Shown here one piece after another: positions 55-59,088 of a stretch of DNA of 64,000 nucleotides. The position numbers and the translations under genes are program-made. Origin of the DNA: the human T2T-CHM13v2.0 reference genome, Homo sapiens. The stretch is taken from positions 31,232,001 through 31,296,000 of the forward strand of contig CP068257.2 of assembly GCA_009914755.4 (NCBI GenBank), written 5' to 3'. Within the stretch, counting starts at the first letter, position 1. The number at the start of each line of letters is the position of its first letter. The notes below the pieces were generated by a model that saw only the letters and a program-made list of their open reading frames with translations, searched no databases and was not told the DNA's origin.

Positions 55-690
<636 letters not shown>

Positions 691-5858: not shown

Positions 5859-6236
5859 GATATAGTTGGGCTGTGTGTCCCCCTCCCAAATCTCATCTCA
5901 AATTGTAATCCCCATAATCCCCACGTGTCAAGGGAGGACCTGGTGGGAGGTGATTGGATCTTGAGGGCAGTTTCCCCCATGCTGTTCTCATGACAGTGAG
6001 TGAGTTCTCACGAGAGTGAATGGTTTCATAAGTGTTTGGCAGTTCCTCCTGATCTCTCTCTTTCCTGCCTCCTTGTGAAGAAGGTTGCCTGCTTCTCCTT
6101 CTCCTTCCGCCATGATTGTAAGTTTCCTGAAGACTCCCCAGCTATGCAGAACTGTGAGTCAATTAAATCTCTTTCCTTTATAAATTATCCAGTTTTAGGT
6201 ATTTCTTTGTAGCAGTGTGGAAATGGAATGATACAC
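5858..6236 (+). mobile_element. ERVL-MaLR solo LTR (THE1/MST-type), near full length
   Basis: tgatatagttgggctgtgtgtccccctcccaaatctcatctcaaattgtaatccccataatccccacgtgtcaagggaggacctggtgggaggtgattgg ... ttataaattatccagttttaggtatttctttgtagcagtgtggaaatggaatgatacac. Confidence 0.8.
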
Positions 6237-6450
6237 TATATATCAATCTCTATCATCTATCTCTATTTATCATGCTTATCTGTCTACCTATCTACCATAT
6301 CTATGATATCTATCATTATCTATCTATCTGTAGCTACTATCTATTGATCTATTTATCTATATCTACTATCTATCTATCATTTATGTATCTCTGCCATCTC
6401 TACCTATCTGTCTATCATCTATCTGTTTCTATTATCTACTATCTACCTAT
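6237..6450. repeat. (TATC)n-type degenerate tetranucleotide block, continuing the block upstream of the LTR
   Basis: tatatatcaatctctatcatctatctctatttatc ... ctatctgtctatcatctatctg. Confidence 0.8.
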
Positions 6451-13348: not shown

Positions 13349-13753
<405 letters not shown>

Positions 13754-26781: not shown

Positions 26782-27243
<462 letters not shown>

Positions 27244-27299
27244 TTATCTATCTGTGAGCATATGTGTGATGGGAGGACAAGAATTGAGAAGATGGGATC

Positions 27300-27400
27300 A
27301 GGAAGAGGAGGGAGGACATATGATTATCTATCTATCTATCTACACACATGCATATATACATATATATACACACACATACATATGCACTATGTGTATGTAA
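27300..27400. repeat. Compound simple repeat (TATC)n / (TA)n / (CA)n
   Basis: gattatctatctatctatctacacacatgcatatatacatatatatacacacacatacatatgcac. Confidence 0.8.
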
Positions 27401-28789
27401 CTCCCTGTGAAAATATTTTCTATTCAACAAATTAAAAAAAAAAAACTTTAGTCAGAAGTGAAATTACATAGAATTTGGGATGCCTTGCCATAAATGGCCT
27501 CTCCATAGTACCTCATCCTGGCATCACCTAAATGGGAGGGTTCTACCCCAATAGCTGAAAGCCCTGCCTGAGCCTTGGGGGCTCTGTGCTGTGGCCAGTG
27601 CTGGACCATGCAGCTCTGGATGCCCCCGACCTGCCGTTCCTCTGACCACTCATGAGAAGCCCACAGGGGCAGCTCTGCCCCCTCACCTTCTACTTCCATT
27701 GTTCCCACTTTTAGAGACCAGAATTTTCCCCAAACAAGTCAACATCTTGCTGTGTTTGCAGAAAACATCCTAGCATTGGAGGGACTGCCAGATGGAAAAA
27801 TAGCTCCCCTTTTCCATTTAGAAGTGGCTTGTTTGATTTCAAAATATAAACCCTGTCCTAATAATAAAAATTACTTTTTTTCTCAGAGATGTGCCAAAGA
27901 CCCTCACCATCTATCCACAGGAGAATGTTCCATTTTTTTGGATGCCTCATAGTCACCTGGTGTGGGGGACAGACCCTGTGGTGGCCCCACGGTCCGCACC
28001 TCCTGGTATTCACACCCTTGTGTGCTGCCCTCCCCTTGAGTGTGGGCAGACCCTGTGACTTGCTTCATAGTAGAATGTGACAAAGATGATGGGCTGTCAC
28101 TCCTGGGCTTACGTTACATCGTGCGAAACCCGACTTACAAACAGATTTGCTTTTGTGCTCTTGCTGGCCTTGAAGAAGCAGGCTGCCATGTCGCGAATTG
28201 TCCATGCAGAGGCCACATGGCACATGAAGTGTGAACCATAAAAGAAAAGTTGACAAATGGTAATGATGCCTAGGAAAGAAAGATAAAGAAAAAGGGGTGC
28301 AGGAAAAACAAGAGGCCCAGCACCACAGAGTTAAAAGCAGTGTTTTGCTGGCTAATGCCAAACATGGACAACCAAGCCACAGATTTTTCCATAGCCCGAG
28401 AAGTTTTGTTTTTCTCAATGAAAAATCAGAAGACTTTGCATTAAAGCATATCAGTGATATAGATAGCCTCAAATAATCAAAAAGAATTTACAAAGCTGTA
28501 CAACTCTGGTGTCAGTTAGCTTGGTGGAATGACACTGTTGCTCTCTTTTCTGTCTAATGGGCATTTCCTTCTAAGATATTAGTTCTGCCTCCCACGTATT
28601 GCTGCTACTGGATGCTTGACGGCTGTGAGTCTCAGGCATGGGGGACTGACGGTTTTGGTGTGTGTCTGGGTGAGCACAAATTACCTGAATGCTGATGTGG
28701 TAGGCGTCTCCTGGAAAGAACACTGTCTTTAATTGACTTAATGTTATTTTCACCTGGATAAAAATTTCAAATTTTTATACTATTTGTAT

Positions 28790-29184
28790 TTTCTTTCCTT
28801 CTTTCTTCTTTTTTCTTTCTCTTTCCTTTCTTCTTTTCTTTCTTTCTTTCTTTCTTTCTCTCTTTCTTTCTTTCTTGCTCCCTGTCTCTCTCTCTCTCCC
28901 TTCCTTCCTTCCTAACTTCCTTTCTTCCCTCCTTCCTTCTTTCTTCCTTTTTCTTTCTTCTTTCTTTCCTTTCTTTTCCTCTTTCTTTCTTTTCTTTTTT
29001 CTTTCTCCTTTCTTTCTTTCTTTTTTCTTTCTTTCTTTCTTACTTTCTCTTCCTTCCTTCTCTCTTCCTTCCTTTTCTTCCTTCTTTATTTCTCTCTGTC
29101 TCTCTCTTTCTGTCTCTCTCTGTCTCTCTCCCTCTCTTTCTGTCTCCCCCTTTTTTTCTTCCTTTTCTCTTTTCTTCCTTTCAT
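28790..29184. repeat. Long (TTTC)n/(CTTT)n/(TC)n polypyrimidine-polypurine microsatellite, about 400 bp
   Basis: ttctttccttctttcttcttttttctttctctttcctttcttcttttctttctttctttctttctttctctc ... tctctctgtctctctccctctctttctgtctc. The run is continuous with the poly(T) end of the minus-strand Alu at 29185. Confidence 0.95.
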
Positions 29185-33217: not shown

Positions 33218-33561
<344 letters not shown>

Positions 33562-37990: not shown

Positions 37991-40671
37991 GCGACTCTTC
38001 TGGAAATTTGGAATCATTTCAAAGTAAACAACATGAAAAAAAAAAAAAGAATTGGGGCTGAAAGATGCAAGCAGCCTTAAGACATTTCCCATGTTTGTAT
38101 GGTTTCCTCTCTACTGTGTTGCCCCCGCACTTGACAGGACAAAAATGGAGTAGCGCTAAGAGGGTGGAGATGGAGAGGAATAAAAGTATAAGGTGGAAAA
38201 AAGAAAAGAAACCAGCCAAGTCCTTGTGCCCACCATGGCTTCCAGCCTGAAAAAGGTCTGAGCTGGGGTTGAGGAGAAAGATGAACACCACTTCCAGGTT
38301 GGAACTGTTATCTATATATGTCACAGATGTCCTAATAGCAGAAATAAGACAGTATTTTTGACTTAAAGTGCATGTCGAACTCCTGAGACCTGCGGAAACT
38401 TTTACCTAAAGCAGGGGAAGATGATTACCACTGAATATTCAAGTGGTGAGAGGCCAGAAATACAGTTTCATCTTTAATCGTGTCCCATAAGTAAAGTTCT
38501 CTCCTGTTGCCAGTCTGGGAGAAAGAGGTCGTTTTAGTTAAGGAAGCCTGCTGTTTCTTTGCACTCTCATTACATAATTACTTGTAGAAACCCATGCTTG
38601 ACAGAGTTTCTCACTTATTGTAAACAGCGTGGATAATGCCTTAGAAAATCTGTTAACTTCCCAGTTGTCAGGTGACATCTTGAATAGGGGTGCTTAAGAA
38701 TGGGGCATTGAGCAGCAGCTGGCGAGGGCTAAGGAGACAGCTTCCCCAGCCTCGCAGTTTGGGCGTGGCTTGACTTAGAACCCACAGACTTCCACAGAGC
38801 ACCTCCGTGATGGGGCCCTGCATATATAGTTTTATTCCTGGTATGATTTGAAGGTCCTTGCTATGGGATTGCAAGGCAGGTGTTACTTTCTTCACCTCAG
38901 GAAGGATTTACAAAGGACTCCTTACACTTAGATGGCCTGAGAGTCATTCACAGAGCCTGAGACAGACAGAAGGAAGGGTCAGGTACTGCAGTACATGGGC
39001 CCAGGAGATCTGAGATGGGTCCCTGCCCTGCCCCTGCTTGGCTAAAGGACCTTGGATTTCTCACTTCACCACTCTCGACCTTGGCGGCTTGTCTCATCTG
39101 GAAATGGAACATGAGAGTTGTCAGAATTAAAATGGAGTCACTATGTTAAAAACCCAACCTCACAAATAGAGCCAGGGAAAGCCATGAAGAGAGGGCTCTT
39201 ACGTTTGTGTGCTTGATAACACAAACTGTCACAAAAGACTGCAAAAGCCGCAACCCTGCACAGAGGCCATCACAACCTTACACAAAGAGTACTTCTGCAG
39301 GAACATCTGCGCAGCAACTGTCTGCCCAACCTTGACTGGAATCACCCTTGGTATTGATATTTGTAGCCAAAGATAGTTACCTCAAAACAATGATGTGCTC
39401 ACCTCAGTTCTTCCTCTAAAAACCTTTGTATTCCTTCACCTCCCTAACTATGCATGTAATTTACTGTGGCACATGTATTCTCATTGCAATGCTGTGTTCC
39501 CAAATCAATATCTTATTCTTTTACAGAGCCTCTCTCTGTTTGTTATCTAGGTTGGCTGGAAAGTGGTCTCAACTCTACCCACAGTCCCTTCTCATCCATG
39601 AGTCTCTGATTATCTTCTTTGGAGAGATGCTCAGAGCTCAATAAGCCCAAATAGTCCTTTATCACTCAGGGTACAGCAGGCAACAGACAGCATGCTCAAA
39701 TTGTGTTATTTGAGGAAAGTGTAATAAAGGGACCCTTTACAATGATGTGGGCAGGTTACAGGGCAGCCACAAGGAGTACTGTGGTGTTTCTGGGCTAGTA
39801 ATCATGGTGGGCACTTACCCTCTTCAGGCCTAAGAGCGCAGGAGCCTGAGACACAGAGGGCTGGGGTTGGAGGGATTTGGCCAGCCTGCAGTGACCCCAG
39901 AGAGGGATCAGGAGAGGACATGGACTGATCTCACATTTCTATCCCCATCTCTTCTGCAGCCCATGACGTCCCCATTGACTGGAGACAACCAGAAGTTGGA
40001 GAGCAGGGGAGCCCATTGATGTGGCCCTTTGAGGTCAGACCCATGGCATAGAGCAGGGGTGGAAGCAGGGCTGGAGGGGCAAATGAGAGACATCCAGCAC
40101 AGGGTACCCTTCATCCCCCAGTGTTTATGTTTGTCCTTTACCCAGGTTATAAATGTGTGTCCCCAAAAAGGACAAAGTCATTCAAAGTCCCAAAACCTAA
40201 AATATTAGCCACCTTCATTCAAGGTAATGAGGGGAAAGGGAAAGGAATGGCTGATGTGTATAACCACCATAGTACCTGATGGAGCAGGTTACAAGTCCAG
40301 GTTGGCCATCACAGCTGCCTTCTTCCTACCACCCTTCTACAGTTCCCTTTGTCTTATGCCAGTTTCGGTTTGCCTAAGTTCTTTACCTAGAGGGATGAGC
40401 TAAGCCTTCATTCTGGAAGTATCTCTGTCCTTGGAGATCTTTTCTCCATTGTCTAAGCCTACTGGGCAAGGAAGTACTAAGAAAGTTCCCAGTGTATCTC
40501 TGGGGATCCACACATAGAACTCCATTCCCCCATTAGGTAACTTGCTCCTTGGTTATTGGAATCAATTACTGTGTTCAACACAGTGACCCTTTCTCTGCTT
40601 GCTGATTAAGCAGCAGGCAGATTTCTCCCCAAAACGCATGACTTGGAAAGCATGTTCCCCTTGGACACTGT

Positions 40672-41080
40672 ATCAGTCAGGGTTCCAGCAAAAAACAAAA
40701 CAAACAAACACAGAACAAGTAGCATATATACATCAAGAGATATATTGCAAGGAATTGGCTTATGAGGTTGTGGCAGCCACCTAGGCAAGTCTAAAATCCA
40801 GAGGGTAGGCCATCAGGAAGGGCCACCTGGAACTCTAGGGCAGGAGCTGATGCTGCAGGTCAAAGGCAGACTTTCTTCCTCAGGGAAGCCTCAGCTCTGC
40901 TCTTAAGGCCTTTCCACTGATTGGAAATCTCCACCCAGAGTGTAGAGGACAATCTCCATTCCTTAAAGCTAGTGATTGTAGATGCCAATCACATCTGCAG
41001 GATACCTTCACAGCAACACCCAGATTCGTACTTGATTGAATAACTGGGTATTACAGCCTTGCCAAGTTGACACTTCAAAC
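40672..41080 (-). mobile_element. MLT1-like ERVL-MaLR solo LTR, antisense
   Basis: ctgtatcagtcagggttccagcaaaaaac ... gcaaggaattggcttatgaggttgtggcagccacctaggcaagtctaaaatccagagggtagg ... ccttgccaagttgacac. Reverse orientation of the tgtgtcaacttgg...ctgactaatacag LTR family. Confidence 0.6.
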
Positions 41081-41553
41081 TGACCATTACAGGCACTAAG
41101 ATCTCCACACCCTCCCAGTCTAAGAAGATAGGGATGGGATGCAAACATCCCTCCAAAGAGTTTCACGACATGATAGTGACAGGGATACTCTTATCTCCCC
41201 CACTCACCCCCCAGTCCCATGGATTCTGACTAAAGGAAAGACAGCACCAAACCTTAGATATCTTTAAGGACACATGGGGCAGAGGTAGACAGCTCTCTGA
41301 CCTCCCAGCATCTTGTCTCCCACCTAGAACTATACCCGAGCCATCCTCAGGCCACTCCACTTTTTATTAAACCAGAAGTTTCTGGGTGATGTGGCCCTTT
41401 GGGTTAATCTGGGCATGAGTTCATTGCCACACTTCCTTTGCCCTAAAATATGTCACCTGATCAGAGGTGATAATATAGGATACTATGGCAATGATGGAGG
41501 AATTCTGCAAGTGCGGGAATAGTGGTACTGATCAAAGCATTATGAATAGGCAT

Positions 41554-41989: not shown

Positions 41990-42074
41990 ATAGGGAAGAC
42001 AAATCTGTATCAGAGATATATCTATCTCTGTGAAGAATAAGTTCTACCACATTCATGATGGAAGGGCCCTGTGG

Positions 42075-42478
42075 GGGTTACTTTCATGTGTCAGCTTGGC
42101 TGGAACATGGTGGCCAATTGTTTGGTCAAGCACCGGACTAGATGTTCCGGTGAGAAGATATTTTAGATACGACTGGTATTTAAATCCATGGACTTTATTA
42201 AAGCAGATTGTTCTCCGTGATGCATGTTGGCTTCATCCAGTCCACTGAAGGCCTTAAGAGCAAAGACTGAGGTTTCCTGAGGAAGAAGGAGTTTCCAGCC
42301 TGCTGCCCTATGGAATTCATACTCAATACTGCAGCATCAACTCTTACATAGGTTCAGATTTTGGACTTGCCAGTTTCCACAGTTTCGTGAGCCAATTCCT
42401 TAAAATAAATCTCTTTCTCTCTCTTCTATTGGTTAAGTTTCTCTGGAGAACTCCCATTAATACAGGGTTCAATATAAT
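42075..42478 (+). mobile_element. MLT1-like ERVL-MaLR solo LTR, sense
   Basis: tgtgtcagcttggctggaacatggtggccaattgtttggtcaagcaccgg ... gtttccacagtttcgtgagccaattccttaaaataaatctctttctctctcttctattggttaagtttctctggagaactcccattaatacag. Confidence 0.65.
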
Positions 42479-42699
42479 CAACTTGCTGGTATCCCTGGGA
42501 AATAGTAACAGCTTAGAGGCTCAGATACAGTCTCTGCTGTTGACAAATTGGAAACTCATCAATAGCTGTAGCTAAATCAGCCCTGGCGAGGAAAAGTCCA
42601 TAGTGATGAACCCATGTATAAACCTCCACCCCTGCCATATGGCCACTTTGTATCTGAGCCCATTGAGTGAGCCACATGGTTAGTCAACCTCTACAGGAC

Positions 42700-43090
42700 A
42701 GGTCAACTTAACCACCTCAATTATTCTGCTCAAGCTGCTGTAGCGAGATACCACTGACTGGTTAGCTTAAACCATAGACATTTAGTTTCTCAAAGTTCTG
42801 GAGGCTGGAAGTCCAAGATCAAGGTGTCAGCAAGGTTAATTTCTGGTGAGGACTCTATTCGTTACTTGCAGATGGCTACCTTCTTTGCTGTGTCCTCACT
42901 TATCCTCTTTTCTGTGTGTGCAGAGAAAGAGCTCTCTGGTGTCTTTTCCTTTTCTTATCAGGACACCAGTCCTACCGGATTAGGGCCACACTCTTATGAC
43001 CTCATTTAACCTTAATTACCTCCTTAAAGGCCCCATCTCTGAATATAGTCACATTGAAGAGTTAGGGCTTCAACATGTGAATTTGGGGGG
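42700..43090 (+). mobile_element. Ancient interspersed repeat (LTR/MER-like; same family as 15650-15850)
   Basis: ttctcaaagttctggaggctggaagtccaagatcaaggtgtcagcaaggttaatttctggtgaggactc ... cttatcaggacaccagtcctaccggattagggccacactcttatgacctcatttaaccttaattacctccttaaaggccccatctctgaatatagtcacattgaagagttagggcttcaacatgtgaatttggggggcgggg. Confidence 0.55.
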
Positions 43091-43839
43091 CGGGGTTAGA
43101 CACAATTCAGTCCATAACACCACCTGATTTTTGAGAACCTCCTCCACAGTGAATGCCCTGTAGTGAAGAAGGCATGAATATCCATGCCCATTCTAAGAGA
43201 TCCATCCACATACTCCCAGACCTCTTTATCATCAATTTTCAAGTCTTGTTCCAAGTCACTGACTGGCTAACCAATCCATCAGTCACTCACCATGGATTGG
43301 ACTGGATCTACACCTCTGGCCACCTTTCCTGATTGCTTCCTGGATCTGCATAGATATCAGCACCTCATCCTCAGCCTTCCTCACCGCCTGATTTTCAAGC
43401 TTTCTGGCCTAGGCTATGACCTCAGCTCAGATGTTGAATTTAAGTGTAAGCTTGCAGAGCAAAATAAACTAATGAGGATTCCCTGAGTAACAATGAGTGA
43501 ATAGGCAGGAGCCCAGTGGTGGGCTTGCAGATGGCTACCTTCTTTGCTGCGTCCTCACTTAGCCCCCATTCCCCAAAGCATGTGCCATAGGACCATCAGA
43601 AGCCAGCTGGCTCCCAAATGTTTAGAATCACTATAGGATCAAAGTCTCTTTACACTTTGCCCTCAACTTGAACTTTATCTCATGCCAGCACTGTTCATAA
43701 TTTGAGTAATAACACATCACAGTGTGCCACGGATTACCTGTGTGCCATTTCCCCTTGGCAAGATAGGTATTACGGGGCAATGCAAATAGATGAGCAACTA
43801 GTGGCTTGCTGGTAAGTGTTGAACAACTGATTCTTAAAA

Positions 43840-43935
43840 AGAAAGGAGGAAGGTGAGGAAGGTTAGAAAGGAAAGGAGGGAGAAAGGTAGGGAGGGGAGA
43901 AACAAAGAAAGAAACAAAAAAGAGAAAAGAAAGAA
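43840..43935. repeat. GA-rich purine tract
   Basis: gaaaggaggaaggtgaggaaggttagaaaggaaaggagggagaaaggtagggaggggagaaacaaagaaagaaacaaaaaagagaaaagaaagaag. Confidence 0.8.
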
Positions 43936-44157
43936 GCCCTCATTGGTAGCATTTGCAAATTTCTATGGTATAAATATTCCCTACTATGGCTGATTTCAAT
44001 CTACCAACATAATTTCACTGAACACGTAGTTGGAAAGAGATGTACACAGTCAGCTCTTGTAAGCCAGTCATAGCTGGCTCCAGCACACCACGTGGCTATC
44101 TCAATCTTCAGAGTCTGTTCTGAGGGTCTGTTTCCTGGGGCTACTCCTGGAACCCAT

Positions 44158-45000
44158 TACTGTATCAGTCAGGGACCTAGCAACAAATAGATGGCCCACT
44201 AATAGGGAGTAATTTGAGAAAATTTTAACAAAGTAATTATTTACAAATAGTATTTTATAATTATTTAATTATCAGTTAATTTAATAATTATTCATTATAA
44301 TTAATAATATATACAATGTATAATATATAAATTATATAATATATTTATTATAATTAATAATTATAGAAATATATTTTTATATTATATTGTATATATAGAT
44401 GTATAAAATATTTAATATATAAATTGCATATTATATAAAATTTAAATGAGATTTATAAGATATATAAATTAATTAATTATATTTATAATTTATAAGTATG
44501 CATTTATAAATTTATATACATTATTTATAATGTATATACTTAATTATTATCTTATTAATTATATAATTATATTATTAGTTGCCTAATTACACTTATATAA
44601 TTAATTTATATAGTTATATTTATATAATTATAACAAATATAACTATATAACTTATAATTATATTTTATCTATATATGGAAATATTTTATATATTATAACA
44701 TATAAATAGTATAATTATAATGAAAATATATGAAAATATAAATAATAAATAATTATTCATTTAATAACTATTTAATTATTATTTACGAGTTAAGAGTGGG
44801 TAGGGTCTAGAGAAACCACAAAGGACAGTGAAGGTTTCTTGGGCTAGTAAGAGCAGGGCTCTGTTACAGTCCCTGGGCCTGAAGTGCAGAGGGAAAGAGC
44901 AGTTACTGGAACATGGAGACAGAGAGAAAGCCACGTGACAAGTCCTGGGTGCTTTGGTCAAGGAATGAAGCCAGCCTTATATCAATTCCTTAGGGAGGGA
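44158..45000 (-). mobile_element. MLT1-like LTR remnant containing a 590-bp A/T-only expansion
   Basis: Starts ctgtatcagtcagggacctagcaacaaatagatggcccac (the LTR end motif) and resumes gagaaaccacaa ... ggaatgaagccagccttatatcaattccttaggg. In between, 44200-44790 is about 99% A/T (taattat, tataatt, atatata words). Confidence 0.5.
44200..44790. repeat. Extended A/T-only low-complexity tract (TA-rich, many short palindromic words)
   Basis: About 590 bp with almost no G/C: attatttaattatcagttaatttaataattattcattataattaataatatatacaatgtataatatataaattatataatatatttattataattaataattatag ... Confidence 0.95.
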
Positions 45001-46194
45001 GCTGTAATTTCTTTTCCTCCTGCCCTCCAAACTACAATTTTTCCTCGTTGGTAGGGTGACCAATCGTCTCAGATTGCCTGGGATTATCCTGGTTTTAGCA
45101 GTTAAAGTCCTAAATCCTGGAAAATCAATTCGGTGATATGCACAGAAGCTTGGGGGAAATGTGTAAAAACCATATGGTGGCCCAAAAAATAGGGGCTGAA
45201 TGCAATACTGTTTTGGCTGTAAATGGGTACAGTGCAGATGATCCACCTTCCATAACCCCTGTTGCTGTTTCTCCCCTGACTGCTCAGGTTGGGGACCACA
45301 ACTTGTCATTCAGAATAGTGGATCATCCACGGTTGCAACTTTCCCAAGGTTGCAACTAAGTGTGCGTCACAAGTACACTGCAATCACAGGCATTAAGAGT
45401 CTGTCTTTGACTTTACCTGTGAACTAACTGTTGTCCTTTGTATCAAGATAGTACTCATTTAATTTTTAGCAGTTGTAAATATTGTGGCCATATTTTCTAA
45501 GAGTTCGGATAATTAAAAAAGATAGTGATTACAATACCAATGCTGGCGTAAACCAAGGCATCACTGGAAAAGAAGGCTAACCAACTGTGTTATCTTAATG
45601 ACATATGGAAGGACATGTACAACCAGATTAGAGAGGTAAATAATCAAAACAGAGCACGCTGCTCAATATGCAGAAAAGAGTTTTGAGCCAGGCACAGTGG
45701 AGAAGGGGATGTGAAAGTGCATGTGGAGACGACATCTCACAATTCTAAGATGAAACCGATATCCCTAAGTCAATCAAAAAACGTTGTCTACCAAAAAATG
45801 TCCAGTCAAAAATAGCAGCTGCTGCATTAGCTCAGTCATACCACACAAATCACTTTATCAAATCACTCTTTTGATCATTTTATAGGATTCAGTAAGGCTA
45901 TATTTCCTGATTCAGAGGTTACAACTGAAATGTCTTGCAAACAAACAAAAGAGATGAATAAAAACAATAAGAGATGTGTTGGTCCCTTACATGGTAGAAC
46001 TGATCTTTTCCTATCTTCCCCACAATCATGCTTTCTGCAGCTCTGAGTTTATAAGCTCTTATAAACTCAGAATATAAACAGCACTTATCAGAATATAAAC
46101 AGTGTTTCTGCAGCACTCAGTTTATAAACTCAGAAAATGTAAACCAAAAGATTACTGATACCTTATCTGAATAAAAACTAGACATTTACATCTC

Positions 46195-46281
46195 TAACCC
46201 CAGTGCCTTGGGAGGCTGAGGTGGGAACCTTTCCTGAGGCCAGGAGTTCAAGACAAGCCTGGGCAAAATGGTGAGACCCCC
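46195..46281 (+). mobile_element. Alu left-arm fragment
   Basis: cccagtgccttgggaggctgaggtgggaacctttcctgaggccaggagttcaagacaagcctgggcaaaatggtgagacccc. Confidence 0.75.
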
Positions 46282-46624
46282 TGTATTAGTCTGTTTTCAT
46301 GCTGCTGATAAAGACATACCTGAGACTGGGCAATTTACAAAAGAAAGAGGTTTAATGAACTTACAACTCCACGTTGCTGGGGAGGCCTCACAATCATGGT
46401 GGAAGGTGAAAGGCATGTCTTACAGGGCAGCAGGCAAGAGAAAAGAGCTTGTGCAGGGAAGCACCCCTTTATAAAACCATCAGATCTCATGAGACTTATT
46501 CACTATCATGAGAACAGCATGGGAAAGACCTGTCCCCATGATTCAATTACCTCCCACCTGGTCCCTCCCACAGCACATGGGAATTCAAGATGAGATTTGA
46601 GTGGGGACACAGCCAAACCATATC
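46282..46624 (-). mobile_element. ERVL-MaLR solo LTR (THE1-type), antisense, inserted into or abutting the Alu fragment
   Basis: tgtattagtctgttttcatgctgctgataaagacatacctgagactgggcaatttacaaaagaaagaggtttaatgaacttacaactccacgttgctggggaggcctcacaatcatggtggaaggtgaaaggcatgtcttacagggcagcaggcaagag ... gggacacagccaaaccatatca. Confidence 0.85.
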
Positions 46625-47774
46625 ACCCCCCATCACTACAAAATATATATATATAAATACATAAAAAGAATAAAAATAAAAACTAGACTTTGTTAATCTA
46701 CCTACAGATATGACTGAGAATGCAAAGGTAAATTTTGGCAAATTATTTTCAGTCTATAAACTTCTTACCAATGAAAATGGAAAACTCTTATCTGCTAATT
46801 GTCATATATTTAGGGGGTGTGATTTGCTTATCTGGGATATTGATGATTTCATAATGAAAGCTTTTGGTCAGCTTTCATTTCTTTCAAAATGTGTAGAAAC
46901 AATGAGACTTTTGACTTTGTAGAAATGGTAGGAGGTAGTCTCCTTAGACGCATGCCTACAAGGTGGCTATTATCATTGCCTGCCATAGAGAAAATATTAA
47001 ATTGTTGGTCTATTGCAAAGTAATATTTTCAAAGTTTGGGATAAGAAGGATGTCCCTGTTTAATTTGGAAATACACTGAGGCTGATAATGGAGACAAGGA
47101 CAGAACTTATGTGCTCTTTCTCCAAAACTGTTTGGTGGTATTTGAAGAGCCCATAAGGAGCATAGAAAAGGATGGGCAGACTGGACTTCAGTTATTTGAT
47201 GTTATGTGGACATTGTGAAAAAACTCACTAAAAAAAGGACTTAGCAGATGAGGACAATAAGGCTTAGATTCATTCTAAAAAGTGATACTTTAAAAAATAA
47301 TAATAAAGCAGGTTTAAAACTATAAAAAACAGAAAATGGCAACAGAGCTTTCTTAATTTCTCTACTAAATTGGTAGTTTATTTGTAATCCAATTTAAGAT
47401 TTTAAAACTTAAAATTATCTCTGTGCTTTAATACCATTTTCTGTGAGAAACAAAGGTTTAACTTATAATGCCATCCAATGTACTTCAGACTAGGTAAAAT
47501 GATGGCCGTTTTGGACATGACTAACTCATATAACTAATTTATTGATACAAAGAATCTCACTGAGAAACACCTGGTTTTTCAAAATAAGTCTTTAGATACA
47601 AAGTGGATGGACAATCTTGGAGAGCTGCAAACTAATTCTTGCTTGTCTAAAAACTTGTTCTTGCTAGCGGATTACATGGCAAAATTTTAAAAGGGTTTCA
47701 CAGAATGTATGTGTTTACTATACATTATTATTACCCTTTCTCCAGAGAAACAGAAGCAATAAAAAAGCTATCAT

Positions 47775-47830
47775 CTTATTGTCTATCTATCATCTATCTA
47801 TCTATCTATCTATCTATCCATCCATCCACT
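47775..47830. repeat. (TATC)n / (ATCC)n microsatellite
   Basis: tctatctatcatctatctatctatctatctatctatccatccatccac. Confidence 0.9.
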
Positions 47831-48215
47831 GAGAAATTTATTTGAAGGAATTAGTCCACACAATTGGGGCTGCAAGGCTGAGATCTGCAGGGCAGGTGTC
47901 AGGCTGGAGACTCAGGGAAGAGTAGATGTTGCAAACCTGAGTCCAAAATCCACTGGAAACTCAGGCAGGGTTTCTATATTGCAGTCTGGAAACAGAGCTC
48001 CTTCTTCCCTGGGAAACCTCAGTCTTTGCTCTGAAGGCCTTTGACTGTTTGGAAGAGGCTCATTCACATTAAGGAAGGTCATCCGCTTTACTCAAAGTCT
48101 GCTGATTTATGTGTTAATCATATCTAAAACATACCCTCACAGCAACATCTAGAGTAGTGTTTGACCAGACAACTGGGCACCGTAGCCTGGATGACACATA
48201 TAATTAACCATTAAT
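47830..48215 (-). mobile_element. MLT1-like ERVL-MaLR LTR, antisense, its end replaced by the microsatellite
   Basis: gaaggaattagtccacacaattggggctgcaaggctgagatctgcagggcaggtgtcaggctggagactcagggaag ... ggcaccgtagcctggatgacacataaaattaaccatt. Confidence 0.55.
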
Positions 48216-48331
48216 TCCTGTAGGGGCGCCACATTAAAATGCTTTTTTTGAGAACATTGTTAGCTCAATGTCATCACCTTGGGCTGACACCAGGGCTCAG
48301 TGTAATATGGGCTTGATAAGAGGACAGCTGT

Positions 48332-48624
48332 GGCCGGGTGCGGTGGCTCACGCCTGTAATCCCAGCACTTTGGGAGGCTGAGGCAGGCAGATCACTTAAG
48401 GTCAGTAGTTTGAGACGAGCCTGGCCAACATGATGAAACCCCGACTCTACTAAAAGTACAAAAATTACCTAAGCGTGGTGGCAGACACCTGTAATTCCAG
48501 CTACTCAGGAGGCTGAGGCGGGAGAATTGCTTGAACCCAGGAAGCAGAAGTTGCAGTGGGCCAAGATCACGTCACTGCACTCCAGCCTGGGTGACAGAGC
48601 AAAACTCCATCTCAGAAAAAAAAA
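48332..48624 (+). mobile_element. Alu SINE
   Basis: ggccgggtgcggtggctcacgcctgtaatcccagcactttgggaggctgaggcaggcagatcacttaaggtcagtagtttgagacgagcctggccaacatgatgaaaccccgactctac ... Confidence 0.9.
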
Positions 48625-49244: not shown

Positions 49245-49784
<540 letters not shown>

Positions 49785-50725: not shown

Positions 50726-51944
50726 AGCACTTTGTAAAGCCAAGGTAACAACTAGGCGACTATTTCCTGTAGGGAGATTGTTTTGATAAAATATTGCAGA
50801 ATGGTCATGAGAAATATACACAACGGGGAAAGTTAAACCCCATCAAGATTTATGCTTTGAGCCCCCCATCTGTATCAATGCAGAGTAATGGTAGAGTTTT
50901 TAAAAATGACCATGCTGAAAAAAAAGATAACATCTCTGTGGGCTAGAAACTCAAAACGGAAATCAGCTACTGAAGCTAGCAGCCTACTGGGTTGTGAATC
51001 TGCAAGCAGTCAAAGGAAGCAGAGAGTTCATTTTCTGCAGTGATTGGAAGGCAGAAGAACAGAGCCAGGGTGGAATGTGGCTCCCTCTTATAAGAGAATA
51101 TAAAATGCTTACATCAACCCCTGCATAACTGAAAATACAAGATGAGAGAAGGCAAATACAGCCTTGTATCCAGCATCTGGCCATTTTACTAAGTGGCTCA
51201 GTGACTAGAACTAAAATATCCCCAGTTATCTCTGTAAGATGAGCACTCTGAAAGCCCACTGTAAGATGTGATTCTGAACCAGAGACTCTAAGAGGGCACA
51301 TAGACACAAGAAACCACTAGAAAAGGAATGGTGAGTACAGGGCCACTGCAACAAAATGAAATAAAACAAAAATAAACTAATTAAAAAAAATTAAAAGTCA
51401 AGAGATGAAATCACTTAAGAGAAAATGAAATCAATGATGTAATCTGAAAATGATTTAAAAAGTCACTATGCTGAATATCTTCTAAGAGTTAAAGGAAAGA
51501 TGAACAGGATGTTTTTTTAAAAAAAGGACAAGAAATTAAGAACTTGAACCAGGCAGAAATGAAAAAAAGACAGATAGATATGAAAAAGAATCATTTAGAA
51601 ATCTTGGATTAAAAGGAGAAAGCAGCTAATTACTGAAATTTACAAAGCCCAATAGATGGGATAAACTTTAGATTGGATAGCTAAAGAGAAAATTGACAAA
51701 CTGGAAGATGATTATGGAGGAACTCATCTAGAATGTAGCACAGAGTGATAAATTATCCAAAAGGCCAACAATGAAAGAATATGTTTGACATCATTAGTCT
51801 CAGATTACATTTTTAAGAAACATACATATTGGTTGCATACATATTGGTTACAAGTCAGTCCTAAAGCAAAATGAAACAGAAATGCTGAAAATGTGGGGAT
51901 ATAAGAAGCTGCCATGTGTAAAAGCTGAACAAATGCTGTATTAG

Positions 51945-52425
51945 TCAGGGTTCTCCAGATAAACAGAACTAATACAATGTATACAGAGATAGACAGAGAT
52001 TTCGTATAAGGAATTGGTTCACATGATTATGGAAGCCAAGTTCAAAAATCCGCAGGGTGAGTTGGCAAGCTGGAGACCCAGTGGAGCCCCAGCAGCCTCC
52101 AGACCCAGGAAGAGCTGATGTTTCAGTTTGCATCTGAAGAGAGGAAAAAGTTGATGTCCTAGTTTGCAGGCAGTCAGGCAGGAGGAATTGTCTCTTACTT
52201 GGGGGAGGGTTGGCTTTTTTGTTCTATTCAGGCCTCCAGTTGATTAGATGAAGCCAACCCACATGAGAAAGGATAATCTGCTCTGCTGGGTCTCCTGATT
52301 TAAAAATGAATACCATTCAAAAACACCCGCACATAAAAAACCATAATAATGTTAATCAAATATCTGGGCATCCTGTGGCCCAGTCAAGTTGACACACAAA
52401 GTTAACCATCACAATTGGCCTTGGG
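51945..52425 (-). mobile_element. MLT1-like ERVL-MaLR solo LTR, antisense
   Basis: gctgtattagtcagggttctccagataaacagaactaatacaatgtatacagagatagacagagatttcgtataaggaattggttcacatgattatggaagccaagttcaaaaatccgcagggtgagttggcaagctggagacccag ... cagtcaagttgacacacaaagttaaccatcacaat. Confidence 0.65.
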
Positions 52426-56130: not shown

Positions 56131-56427
56131 TATTTTATTTTTAGAGACAGAGTCTCTCTCTGTTGCCCAGGCAGGAGTGCTGTGGCGTGATCATGGCTCA
56201 CTGTAACTTCAAACTCCTGGGCTCATGTGATCCTTTGGCCTCAGCCACTGGTGTAGCTGGGACCACAGGCATGTGCTGCCATGGCTGGTTAATTTTCAGA
56301 ATTTTTTTTGTAGAGATGGGGTCTCGCTATGTTGCCCAGGCTGGTCTTGAACTTTTGGGCTCATGTGATCCTCCTGCCTCTGCCTCCCACAGTGTTGGGA
56401 TTACAGGCGTGAGCCACTGCACTCAGC
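56131..56427 (-). mobile_element. Alu SINE (reverse complement, AluJ-like)
   Basis: ttttagagacagagtctctctctgttgcccaggcaggagtgctgtggcgtgatcatggctcactgtaacttcaaactcctgggctcatgtgatcc ... gtgttgggattacaggcgtgagccactgcactcagc. Confidence 0.9.
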
Positions 56428-57600: not shown

Positions 57601-58499
57601 TAATAAAATGGTAGTGCGGATGACATGACTGGTGGTGCGATTTATTGGAATGACATGTCTTCTTCCTTACAAAGGGCACTTTCCTTCTGTGCAAGGGTAG
57701 CAACATCCTAGAAGCCAGAGAAATAGCTGTTCCTTCAGTAATGCTATATCCCTTTGACCAACATCTCACTATCTTCATAGGCCACACACAGTGGGTGTAT
57801 TGATTGATGCTGGCATAGACACACTGATAGGTAAAAAATGAAAAAGAATTTTAGATATAGAACGTCTTTTCTCCTCTTCTCTTCTAGTCTGAGTTCAAAT
57901 CTCTCCTCTTCTGGCAATGTTTGGTCTTCCCTGGACCATCTTGGAGAGCTGAGAACCCTAAAAGCAGCACCAGCCTGCCCACCAGGGGGCAGCGCACGCA
58001 CCATGAGGTTGTTCACTGGGCTTATCAAGATCTATCTGGCTAGGGTTGTTTTCCAAGGATTGGGAAGAATCGCTTCGGTCCTTCTTTGGAATTTGCTCTG
58101 AAGTCTTCTTCCCTTCATTGCTCCTGTTAGATTCTCCACAACAAGTGAAGAAATGAGGAAATAGATTTCTCTTCCCACATTAAAGCAAAGTTAATAAAAT
58201 GGTCATGGGCACTGGAGAAGTCTTTGGCTTTGGTTTTGTTTATGCGATCATTTTTATGATAAAGATAGGAAAGGAAGAGTCCCAAAGCCAAGGCCATTGA
58301 GAGGAGATGAGTGGGGATTTCCACTCAAGGATGGCGAGTTGAATGCAGGGGTTAGCCTCCAGTCCCTCCTGAAACCCCACTAAAGCAACAACAGGGGAGG
58401 TATTTTGGAAGACATATAAACCTACGGAATGAAGAGAACAGAAGCAATGATAATAGCAATAAAATCTGAAAGTTTGGAAAGCAAATGTAAGTTTGGTAA

Positions 58500-59088
58500 C
58501 TGTGATGGTGAATATTAGGTGTCAACTTGATGGGATTGAGGGTGGCTGGTAAGGTATTGTTTCTGGATGTGTCTGTGAGGGTATTGCCAGAGGAAATTGA
58601 CATTGAAGTTGGTGGGCTGGGAGAGGAAAACCCACCCTTTATGTGGGTGGGCACCATCCAATCAGCTGCCAGCAAGGCTAGAGCAGAGCAGACGCAGAAG
58701 GAGAAGGTGCAATGAGCTGGCTTGCTGAAGCTTCTGGCCCTCCTTCTTCTTCCCATGCCAGACACTTGCTTCTGCTCCTCCTGCCCTTGGATATCAGACT
58801 CCAGGTTCTTTGGCCTTTGGACTCTGGGACTTGCATCAACAGTTTCCCTGAGGGTTCTCAGGCCTTTGGCTTAAAGGTTGCAATGTTGGCTTCCCTGGCT
58901 TTGAGGTTTTCGGACTTGAAGTGAGCCACTACCAGCTTCTCACTTTCCCCAGCTTGCAGATGGCCTATTGTGGGACTTTGCCTTGTAATCATGTGAGCCA
59001 ATTCTCCCTAATAAACTCCCTTTTATATATACATGCATCCTATTGGTTCTGACCTCTGGAGAACCTGGACTAATACAGTAACTGATGC
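58500..59088 (+). mobile_element. MLT1-like ERVL-MaLR solo LTR, sense, near full length
   Basis: tgtgatggtgaatattaggtgtcaacttgatgggattgagggtggctggtaaggtattgtttctggatgtgtctgtgagggtattgccagaggaaattgacattgaagttggtgggctgggagaggaaaacccaccctttatgtgggtgggcaccatccaatcagctgcc ... gtgagccaattctccctaataaactcccttttatatatacatgcatcctattggttctgacctctggagaacctggactaatacag. The track ORF at 58352-58765 is LTR-derived. Confidence 0.7.

What the first reader, a model, noticed from the sequence alone, without database searches (positions are those of the whole stretch)
44158..45000. 590-bp almost G/C-free tract embedded in an old MaLR LTR: PATRR-like, potentially cruciform-forming and fragile
Positions 44200-44790 contain essentially only A and T, built from short palindromic words (taattat, ataattat, tatatat, aattaatt). 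The tract sits where the MLT1-like LTR consensus has only a short tatatatagatatatag motif, and the LTR resumes on both sides. So the tract is an in-place expansion of an AT-dinucleotide seed. Long AT-rich palindromic tracts of this kind extrude cruciforms. They underlie recurrent translocation breakpoints and common-fragile-site flexibility peaks. The ORF-track protein at 44779-44961 just downstream is spurious.
Basis: seen in the sequence. Interest (0 to 1): 0.5.

Follow-up and report, generated by a model that had tools for sequence, protein, structure and literature searches.

The report
Ordinary AT-rich tract, not a palindrome
A 567-bp stretch of about 92% A+T sits next to the start of an ancient retroviral-type LTR in a primate genome; it is a very easily melted "flexibility peak" of a well-known kind, but it is not a palindrome and so lacks what makes PATRRs extrude cruciforms and break.

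Summary
The tract is real. It spans 44219-44785 (567 bp, 7.8% G+C) and is by far the largest A/T segment in the window. It meets the published criteria for an AT-dinucleotide-rich "flexibility peak" and is the least stable duplex in the 64 kb.

It is not PATRR-like. Complementarity about its midpoint is 0.42, against 0.43 expected from composition. The longest perfect inverted repeats have 12-16-bp arms. The number and size of inverted repeats, the local hairpins, the tandem arrays and the periodicities all match composition-preserving shuffles. Folding each strand on itself recovers 29% of the duplex energy, against 97% for a perfect palindrome of the same composition and 17-18% for ordinary DNA.

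Only the whole-tract single-strand folding energy exceeds shuffles (z about -3.2 to -4.6, roughly 20-25% more stable).

The left flank (44161-44204) aligns with the 5' end of five MLT1-type LTRs in the window. The tract lies at or within about 30 bp of their hypervariable simple-repeat slot. The right flank shows no LTR similarity.

Polymorphism and fragile-site location could not be tested.

Verdict: an ordinary, old, degenerate AT-rich low-complexity tract. Low interest.

The parts
44161..44218 (+). 5' end of an old MLT1-type (MaLR) LTR (TGTATCAGTCAGGG...ACTAATAGG), followed by about 15 bp of transition into the tract
   Evidence: nhmmer profile of five in-window LTR copies hits 44156-44204 at profile positions 10-53. 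MAFFT alignment with the 5' ends of the five copies. 86% identity over 29 nt to the copy at 40667-40695.
44219..44785 (.). AT-rich low-complexity tract (567 bp, 92.2% A+T, 54% AT+TA dinucleotide steps). It is a continuous twist-flexibility peak and the least stable duplex in the window.
   Evidence: There is no dyad symmetry. Tandem-repeat content and periodicity do not exceed shuffles.
44307..44397 (.). Most stable local imperfect hairpin (91 nt, -15.1 kcal/mol as ssDNA); not better than chance for this composition
   Evidence: 30 of 150 dinucleotide shuffles have a local structure at least as stable; also (I3).
44513..44538 (.). Longest perfect short-loop inverted repeat: 12-bp arms with a 2-nt loop (TATATACATTAT TT ATAATGTATATA)
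   Evidence: 74 of 300 shuffles have a stem at least as long.
44606..44650 (.). Longest perfect inverted repeat with loop up to 100: 16-bp arms with a 13-nt loop
   Evidence: 19 of 200 shuffles have a best score at least as high.
44786..45000 (.). Right flank of ordinary composition; not recognisable as a continuation of the LTR
   Evidence: no significant similarity to the five LTR copies or to two recalled MLT1 consensus sequences that do match those five copies strongly.
44779..44961 (-). Spurious 60-aa ORF (TTG start)
   Evidence: no Pfam family; not on record as a gene product.

Best explanation
This is an ordinary, evolutionarily old, degenerate AT-rich low-complexity tract in a primate genome. 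The fragile-site literature calls this kind of sequence an AT-dinucleotide-rich sequence or flexibility peak.

Origin (inferred). It lies at or within about 30 bp of the simple-repeat slot near the 5' end of an ancient MLT1-type LTR fragment. It most likely grew there by slippage and small duplications of short A/T words. TAATTA and ATAATTAT are still 3-4 fold enriched. Mutation has since erased any regular repeat structure.

Physical behaviour.
(a) Shown by calculation: it is the weakest duplex and the most twist-flexible segment of the window.
(b) Rough calculation: under negative superhelical stress it would be the place where the surrounding 5 kb melts.
(c) Shown by calculation: when single-stranded it collapses into many weak, alternative, imperfect hairpins. 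Their summed stability (-75 to -79 kcal/mol) is like that of ordinary 45-50% G+C DNA and about 20-25% above shuffled controls.
(d) Shown: it has no dyad symmetry, so a long PATRR-type cruciform cannot form. At most, small 10-16-bp-arm cruciforms could form in competition with simple melting.

Consequence (inferred). It is probably neutral. At most it is a mild, replication-stress-dependent slow zone and a candidate for length polymorphism. It is not a recurrent translocation hotspot.
For: Size and composition.

Flexibility: a continuous peak above 13.7 degrees over 44227-44791, maximum 15.3, against a window mean of 10.74+-0.74. AT+TA steps are 54% against 13.4% for the window. The criteria come from PMC6765107.

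Duplex stability: -0.88 kcal/mol/bp against -1.31+-0.086 for the window.

Stress-induced melting: 98-100% of predicted melting in 42000-46999 falls in the tract (approximate).

No palindrome: midpoint complementarity 0.385-0.459 against 0.428 expected. Intrastrand folding recovers 29% of the duplex energy, against 97% for an artificial perfect palindrome of the same composition and 17-18% for ordinary DNA.

Inverted repeats at chance level:
- 14 short-loop perfect inverted repeats against 13.3-14.0 in shuffles; longest stem 12 bp.
- 17 IRF-type inverted repeats against 11.3+-3.8 in shuffles (15 of 200 shuffles reach 17).
- Best local hairpin -15.1 kcal/mol against -13.5+-2.1.

Whole-tract folding energy does exceed shuffles: z -4.6 and -3.2 to -3.75 for 2- to 5-let shuffles, with 0 of 80 reaching the observed value. 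Twelve control segments give z -0.52+-1.05.

No minisatellite: TRF rows, coverage and scores, autocorrelation, and direct or inverted k-mer pairs all lie within the shuffle range.

Enriched words.

LTR context. Five other copies carry different simple repeats in the same slot; one carries a (TATC)n array.

Primate origin: nine Alu matches.
Against: - The whole-tract folding energy really does exceed every composition-preserving control, so there is some self-complementarity that I could not localise to particular helices.
- The right flank is not LTR-like. The 'growth inside an intact LTR' picture is therefore incomplete: a deletion, or an insertion of unrelated DNA, at this junction is not excluded.
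- No orthologous or allelic sequence could be obtained. Age, mode of growth and present-day stability are therefore inferred, not shown.
- The twist table, the nearest-neighbour table and the SIDD parameters were taken from my memory of the primary literature.
Confidence: 0.8

Rival explanations
1. PATRR-like palindromic AT-rich repeat. A long palindrome extrudes a cruciform, its tip is cleaved, and the site becomes a recurrent translocation or breakage point.
For: Length (567 bp) and A+T content (92%) match the PATRR range given in PMC4940405. Single strands fold better than shuffles.
Against: There is no dyad symmetry (0.42 against 0.43 expected). The best centred ungapped palindrome has 40-nt arms with 32 matches, and 9 of 200 shuffles do as well. 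The longest perfect arms are 12-16 bp. Only 29% of the duplex energy is recovered, against 97% for a true palindrome. Published PATRR11 alleles that translocate have 98.4-98.9% arm match. Alleles at 95.7% match hardly extrude and prefer to melt (PMC3834812). A 9-bp spacer plus four mismatches abolishes extrusion of PATRR22 (PMC1851657).
Confidence: 0.03
2. AT-rich minisatellite of the FRA16B/FRA10B type, or an (AT)n microsatellite of the FRA16D-Flex1 type. Such repeats are capable of expansion and of length-dependent fork stalling.
For: The composition is similar. TRF lists arrays with periods 7-30.
Against: TRF rows, coverage and scores are no higher than in shuffles (14 rows against 14.1; maximum score 88 against 101). 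No lag stands out in the autocorrelation. The longest pure alternating AT run is 8 bp. Flex1 carries 11-88 perfect AT copies (PMC10754330). Pol delta stalls only transiently at [AT/TA]9 and strongly at [AT/TA]24 (PMC2831333).
Confidence: 0.03
3. Functional unwinding element: a base-unpairing region or scaffold/matrix attachment region, or a replication-origin DNA-unwinding element. It would act as a sink for superhelical stress.
For: It is the least stable duplex in the window. 98-100% of predicted stress-induced melting in the 5-kb domain falls in it. It contains long one-strand G-free or C-free 'ATC-type' stretches of 63 and 112 nt, and 10 copies of ATATAT. PMC3371707 cites the idea that flexible AT-rich regions act as sinks for superhelical density.
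Against: There is no direct evidence of any kind. These properties follow automatically from composition, and such tracts are common. Conservation could not be examined.
Confidence: 0.1
4. The tract did not grow inside an intact LTR. It marks a rearrangement junction. Either the 3' four-fifths of the LTR were deleted with one breakpoint in or at the tract, or an unrelated AT-rich block was inserted.
For: Five other MLT1-type copies in the same window are recognisable along their full length (E 1e-95 to 1e-115). Here only profile positions 10-53 are found and nothing to the right. No orphan 3' LTR part lies downstream.
Against: The right flank could belong to a MaLR subfamily that differs 3' of the slot; no repeat library was available to check this. 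The tract begins at or within about 30 bp of the slot where LTR copies carry simple repeats, which fits local growth. This reading is compatible with the main explanation for what the tract is now.
Confidence: 0.2

Closest known systems
AT-dinucleotide-rich sequences (AT-DRS) / TwistFlex flexibility peaks of common fragile sites (Kerem laboratory; PMC6765107, PMC10754330)
   Same: It shows interrupted runs of AT/TA steps and a continuous peak above 13.7 degrees across 565 bp. Its length exceeds the 200-400 bp said to fold readily or to stall forks. Its ssDNA folds more stably than neighbouring DNA.
   Different: AT+TA steps are 54%, against 61-71% in the FRA16C fragments. It is 567 bp long, while the element shown to create a fragile site was 3.4 kb, and genome-wide association was reported for elements of at least 3 kb. 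It is a single peak, not a cluster. The 300-nt segments reach -39 kcal/mol, not below -40, and there is no run of seven such segments (the energy parameters differ from Mfold's). Location in a fragile site is unknown.
PATRR11 / PATRR22 / PATRR17 / PATRR8 (palindromic AT-rich repeats; PMC4940405, PMC1851657, PMC3834812)
   Same: It is several hundred bp long with more than 90% A+T.
   Different: There is no palindrome. Arm complementarity is at the composition expectation, against 95-99% in PATRRs. There is no central symmetry and no known translocation.
FRA16D Flex1 (AT)n and the (TA)n repeats cleaved in WRN-deficient MSI cancers (PMC10754330)
   Same: It is A/T-only sequence able to self-pair.
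   Different: Those depend on long uninterrupted alternating AT (11-88 copies and more). Here the longest alternating run is 8 bp, and TATATAT is depleted relative to the dinucleotide expectation.
Simple repeats born inside transposable elements (PMC3389668, PMC3812793)
   Same: The tract lies at or next to a low-complexity slot of an MLT1-type LTR. That slot carries a different short simple repeat in each of five other copies, including a (TATC)n array in one.
   Different: It is far longer than in the other copies, no repeat unit is recognisable any more, and the rest of the LTR is not detectable.

Membership tests
PATRR | Several hundred bp long | tested here: met
   567 bp. Definition from PMC4940405.
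PATRR | More than 90% A+T | tested here: met
   92.2% A+T over 44219-44785.
PATRR | Nearly perfect palindrome without spacer (arm match about 95-99%, central symmetry) | tested here: not met
   Midpoint complementarity is 0.42 against 0.43 expected. The best centred palindrome has 40-nt arms at 80% match, which 9 of 200 shuffles equal or beat. Folding recovers 29% of the duplex energy against 97% for a perfect palindrome. Criteria from PMC1851657 and PMC3834812.
PATRR | Breakpoint of recurrent or non-recurrent constitutional translocations; size and symmetry polymorphism in the population | not testable with these tools
   No human assemblies or variant data were available. Flank scans of metagenome and genome contigs found nothing.
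AT-DRS / flexibility peak | 100-bp windows with mean twist-angle fluctuation above 13.7 degrees | tested here: met
   A continuous peak over 44227-44791, maximum 15.3, against a window mean of 10.74+-0.74. The threshold comes from PMC6765107. The dinucleotide table (Sarai 1989) was recalled from memory.
AT-DRS / flexibility peak | Very high AT/TA dinucleotide content (61-71% in the FRA16C fragments; below 16% in a non-fragile locus) | tested here: inconclusive
   54% against 13.4% in the window. This is far above background but below the published examples.
AT-DRS / flexibility peak | Length above 200-400 bp | tested here: met
   565-567 bp.
AT-DRS / flexibility peak | Mfold fragility criterion: at least 7 consecutive 300-nt segments below -40 kcal/mol | tested here: not met
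   Tract segments give -39.3 and -39.0 kcal/mol. There is no run of seven anywhere in the window. ViennaRNA DNA parameters were used rather than Mfold's, so the threshold is only approximately comparable.
AT-DRS / flexibility peak | Lies in a cytogenetically mapped common fragile site | not testable with these tools
   The genomic coordinates of the window are unknown.
AT-rich minisatellite (FRA16B / FRA10B type) | Tandem array of a 33-42-bp AT-rich unit | tested here: not met
   TRF output and autocorrelation are indistinguishable from shuffles. The unit lengths are from my own knowledge of Yu 1997 and Hewett 1998.
(AT)n microsatellite (Flex1 type) | Uninterrupted alternating AT of tens of bp | tested here: not met
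   The longest run is 8 bp.
MaLR MLT1-type LTR | 5' terminus TGTAT.AGTCAGGGTTCTCCAGA.AAACAGAAC.AATAGG | tested here: met
   44161-44204 aligns to five in-window copies. The hit is weak (E 0.02 for the window, 3.5e-4 for the region) but lies at the correct profile position.
MaLR MLT1-type LTR | Colinear remainder of the LTR (about 380 bp) after the simple-repeat slot | tested here: not met
   There is no similarity in 44786-45250 to the profile, to the copies or to recalled consensus sequences. No repeat library (Dfam/Repbase) was available, so other subfamilies are not excluded.

The most novel reading that the evidence does not exclude
The tract could be an unrecognised instability site on an evolutionary or population scale. 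Its hairpin-prone, easily melted DNA may have caused the loss of the 3' part of the LTR. If so, it might still be length-polymorphic and a mild replication-stress break or deletion hotspot, or act as a base-unpairing or unwinding element.
Probability: 0.1. Interest if true: 0.3.

Novelty: already known. Interest (0 to 1): 0.12.

Why it matters
It matters little in itself. AT-rich low-complexity tracts of this kind are common in primate genomes, and their physical properties follow from composition.

The useful result is negative. High A+T content plus many short palindromic words does not make a PATRR. In a two-letter sequence such words and short inverted repeats arise automatically: about 30 inverted repeats per kb here against 0.2 per kb in ordinary DNA, yet no more than in shuffles. 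The property that drives cruciform extrusion and recurrent translocation, long-range dyad symmetry, is absent.

If long-read population data showed the site to be length-polymorphic or a breakpoint, it would be one more example of a mid-sized AT-DRS. It would not be a new phenomenon.

Tried and rejected
1. Looking for other assemblies of the locus. Exact-product look-ups of the two neighbouring ORFs found nothing. Polymorphism is therefore untested.

2. Right flank as LTR. I tried blastn and Smith-Waterman against five in-window copies, two MLT1 consensus sequences recalled from memory (both match the five copies at E 1e-15 to 1e-70, which validates them as leads), and an nhmmer profile. Nothing consistent emerged.

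3. Tandem or minisatellite structure. TRF, gap-free direct-repeat families, autocorrelation and k-mer pair counts are all at shuffle level. The 68% 'self reverse-complement alignment' from blastn is one of many overlapping direct and inverted self-alignments at 66-71% identity. I take it for a low-complexity artefact, although it was not itself tested against shuffles.

4. Rfam scan of the window: no family.

5. Competition between small cruciforms and melting. A single-transition Benham-type estimate gave opposite answers for assumed initiation energies of 13 and 18 kcal/mol at sigma -0.04 to -0.05. Only the localisation of melting to the tract is robust.

6. Two papers could not be read (PMC20943 and PMC2144737). 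The twist-angle table therefore rests on memory.

Full report
**1. What is there**

Reading 43500-45600 and profiling composition shows a sharp drop from about 45-50% G+C to 5-13% G+C between roughly 44200 and 44790. The next largest A/T segment in the whole 64 kb is 74 bp, a (TAAAA)n run at 14214-14287. The tract is therefore real and far beyond chance, but 'essentially only A and T' overstates it. Nine close matches to the Alu consensus show that the window is primate. Rfam finds nothing in the window.

**2. Is it a palindrome?**

[quoted passage not shown] Central symmetry is critical: a 9-bp spacer plus four mismatches stops PATRR22 from extruding under physiological conditions (PMC1851657). 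Translocation-prone PATRR11 alleles have 98.4-98.9% arm match and loops of 4-11 bp. Alleles at 95.7% match rarely extrude and, being AT-rich, 'prefer to denature' (PMC3834812).

This tract passes the size and composition criteria but fails the symmetry criterion outright.
- Complementarity of positions mirrored about the midpoint (offsets up to +-40) is 0.385-0.459, against 0.428 expected from base frequencies.
- The best centred ungapped palindrome has 40-nt arms with 32 matches, centred at 44324. Nine of 200 dinucleotide shuffles do as well.
- Perfect inverted repeats with stem of at least 7 and loop of at most 8 number 14, against 13.3-14.0 in shuffles. The longest is a 12-bp stem at 44513-44538, and 74 of 300 shuffles match or exceed that length.
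- Using the search criteria of PMC3834812 (+2/-10, loop up to 100, score at least 20) there are 17 inverted repeats with arms of 10-18 bp. The best has 16-bp arms and a 13-nt loop at 44606-44650. Shuffles give 11.3+-3.8, and 15 of 200 reach 17.
- The density of such repeats is about 30 per kb, against 0.2 per kb in the first 20 kb of the window. That 150-fold enrichment is almost entirely a property of a two-letter alphabet.
- The most stable local structure (span up to 120) is -15.1 kcal/mol at 44307-44397. Shuffles give -13.5+-2.1, and 30 of 150 are as good.

As an energy benchmark, I joined the left or right half of the tract to its own reverse complement. These artificial palindromes fold at -254 to -256 kcal/mol. 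The real tract folds at -74.9 (+ strand) and -78.6 (- strand). Evaluated with one parameter set, intrastrand folding of both strands recovers 29% of the duplex energy, at a cost of 370 kcal/mol. The artificial palindrome recovers 97%, at a cost of 15 kcal/mol. Two ordinary 567-bp controls recover 17-18%.

**3.

The whole tract does exceed its controls.
- The tool's fold of 44200-44790 gives -76.4 kcal/mol against -58.8+-3.8, z -4.6, with 0 of 100 shuffles as stable.
- My folds of 44219-44785 against shuffles preserving 2-, 3-, 4- and 5-mer counts give z -3.75, -3.53, -3.18 and -3.34, with 0 of 80 each.
- Twelve ordinary 567-bp segments of the window give z -0.52+-1.05, minimum -2.26.

So there is a genuine but modest excess, about 12-15 kcal/mol or 20-25%. 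It is not attributable to any outstanding helix or to an excess of exact inverted words.

In absolute terms the 300-nt segments inside the tract fold at -39.3 and -39.0 kcal/mol. The window mean is -30.1+-8.3. This is remarkable for 7-9% G+C. [quoted passage not shown] No such run exists anywhere in the window. My energies use ViennaRNA DNA parameters, not Mfold's.

**4. Flexibility and duplex stability**

I used the TwistFlex procedure (100-bp windows, peak above 13.7 degrees; PMC6765107, PMC4393290) with the Sarai dinucleotide table as I recall it. The window mean is 10.74+-0.74 degrees. The tract is one continuous peak from 44227 to 44791, maximum 15.3. The only other peaks are marginal: 13.8-14.3 at 6228-6389 and 27292-27433.

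AT+TA steps make up 54% of the tract, against 13.4% for the window. The FRA16C AT-DRS fragments have 61-71%, and the non-fragile HPRT locus has below 16% (PMC6765107).

The longest purely alternating AT run is 8 bp. For comparison, Flex1 holds 11-88 perfect AT copies and its fragility depends on length (PMC10754330). Pol delta stalls only transiently at [AT/TA]9 but strongly at [AT/TA]24, and a 75% A+T control without repeats was copied freely (PMC2831333).

Nearest-neighbour duplex stability (SantaLucia table, from memory) is -0.88 kcal/mol/bp in the tract against -1.31+-0.086 for the window. This is the weakest 200 bp of the window by a wide margin.

I also made a rough single-transition Benham-type calculation on 42000-46999, with parameters from memory. 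It places 98-100% of stress-induced melting inside the tract at sigma -0.03 to -0.07. Whether 10-16-bp-arm cruciforms compete with melting depends on the assumed initiation energy of 13 or 18 kcal/mol. That point is therefore inconclusive.

**5. Internal organisation and origin**

TRF lists degenerate arrays with periods 7, 8, 14, 16, 20, 24 and 30 at 60-92% match. Run on shuffles of the tract, TRF gives the same number of rows (14 against 14.1), similar coverage and higher maximum scores (88 against 101). No lag stands out in the autocorrelation: maximum z is 3.2, and 31-42 of 400 shuffles do as well. Exact direct and inverted 8-, 10- and 12-mer pairs are at shuffle level. The tract is therefore not a minisatellite.

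What does deviate is word usage. TAATTA, ATAATTAT and TAATTAT are 3-4 fold over-represented and TATATAT is 2.5-fold under-represented, relative to dinucleotide shuffles. The total fraction of palindromic words is as expected.

My inference is as follows. The tract grew by slippage or small duplications of short A/T words and has since decayed. It cannot be a point-mutated (TA)n, because randomising (TA)n by substitutions would have introduced far more G/C than 8%.

**6. LTR context**

An MLT1 consensus recalled from memory (a lead, not a database entry) matches five places in the window at E 1e-15 to 1e-70, so five MLT1-type LTRs are present. The same search gave no match in the finding region. 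As delimited by the nhmmer profile, the five copies are:
- 40655-41101 (+)
- 42063-42473 (-)
- 47773-48224 (+)
- 51931-52422 (+)
- 58493-59086 (-)

A profile built only from those five window copies hits 44156-44204 at profile positions 10-53 (E 0.02 for the whole window, 3.5e-4 for the region). In the MAFFT alignment the candidate's TGTATCAGTCAGGGACCTAGCAACAAATAGA...ACTAATAGG lines up with the LTR 5' termini.

Immediately after the ...CCAATAGG block, each of the five copies has a different short simple sequence: GA-rich, TA/CA-rich, and in the 47.7-kb copy a roughly 45-bp (TATC)n array. The conserved ATTTATTTTAAGGAATTGG block follows. MAFFT also tentatively aligns the tract's first bases (TAATTATTTAC, 44235-44245) with that conserved block. 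The exact start of the tract relative to the slot is therefore uncertain by about 30 bp.

The right flank (44786-45250) shows no similarity to the profile (no hit at E<=100), to the individual copies (z -0.6 to 2.5, with one isolated and inconsistent z 4.8) or to the recalled consensus sequences. The five other copies are recognisable end to end. Either the remainder of this LTR has been lost, so that the tract marks a junction, or it belongs to a subfamily I cannot recognise without a repeat library.

**7. The ORF**

44779-44961 (minus strand, TTG start, 60 aa) has no Pfam match and is not on record as a gene product. Its neighbours are the same.

**8. What could not be tested**

Length or structural polymorphism, orthologues, and fragile-site location could not be tested. 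No human or primate assembly collection is available here. Exact flank scans of the metagenome and genome contig collections found nothing.

**9. Verdict**

This is a known kind of sequence: an AT-dinucleotide-rich flexibility peak, or AT-rich low-complexity tract, probably seeded at a TE-internal simple repeat. It resembles a PATRR only in length and A+T content and fails the defining symmetry test. It works, if at all, like a mid-sized AT-DRS: easy melting, multiple weak hairpins on single strands, and possibly mild slowing of replication under stress.

The element shown experimentally to create a fragile site was 3.4 kb with 66% AT/TA steps, and the genome-wide association was reported for elements of at least 3 kb (PMC6765107). 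Genome-wide, twist flexibility is only a minor predictor of fragile regions, contributing about 8% in the optimal model (PMC3371707). Interest is low.

Noticed in passing
window 28789-29182: A roughly 400-bp polypyrimidine (CT-rich) tract on the + strand, with pure pyrimidine runs of 126 nt (28916-29041), 88 nt (28789-28876), 45 nt and 40 nt. It is a much stronger candidate for a non-B (H-DNA/triplex) structure than anything in the finding.
   Followed up: no
window 43836-43936: A 101-bp tract of 94% purine (GA-rich) lies about 280 bp upstream of the AT tract. It is the highest-scoring purine segment in the window, so two different non-B-prone motifs lie side by side.
   Followed up: partly
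window 40655-41101 (+), 42063-42473 (-), 47773-48224 (+), 51931-52422 (+), 58493-59086 (-): Five old MLT1-type MaLR LTR copies lie within about 18.5 kb (40.6-59.1 kb), plus the fragment at 44161. Each carries a different simple repeat in the same slot after ...CCAATAGG, so the slot behaves as a microsatellite nursery. The copy at 47.7 kb has a (TATC)n array at about 47780-47830.
   Followed up: partly
window 6228-6389 and 27292-27433: These are the only other, marginal, twist-flexibility peaks (13.8-14.3 degrees). Both are compound TATC/TA/CA-type microsatellite regions.
   Followed up: no
window 99-132, 397-430, 2898-2931, 13410-13443, 26794-26827, 33515-33548, 48345-48378, 49731-49764, 56382-56415: Nine Alu elements identify the window as primate. 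No ORF of at least 130 aa looks like a coding exon (they are low-complexity or repeat-derived translations), and there is no Rfam family in the window.
   Followed up: partly
window 44235-44245 and 44773-44786: The two ends of the tract carry similar words ending in the rare C: TAATTATTTAC on the left and TAATTATTATTTAC on the right. Both resemble the LTR's conserved ATTTATTTTAAGG block. This may be a trace of a duplication that started the tract, or it may be chance in A/T-only sequence.
   Followed up: no
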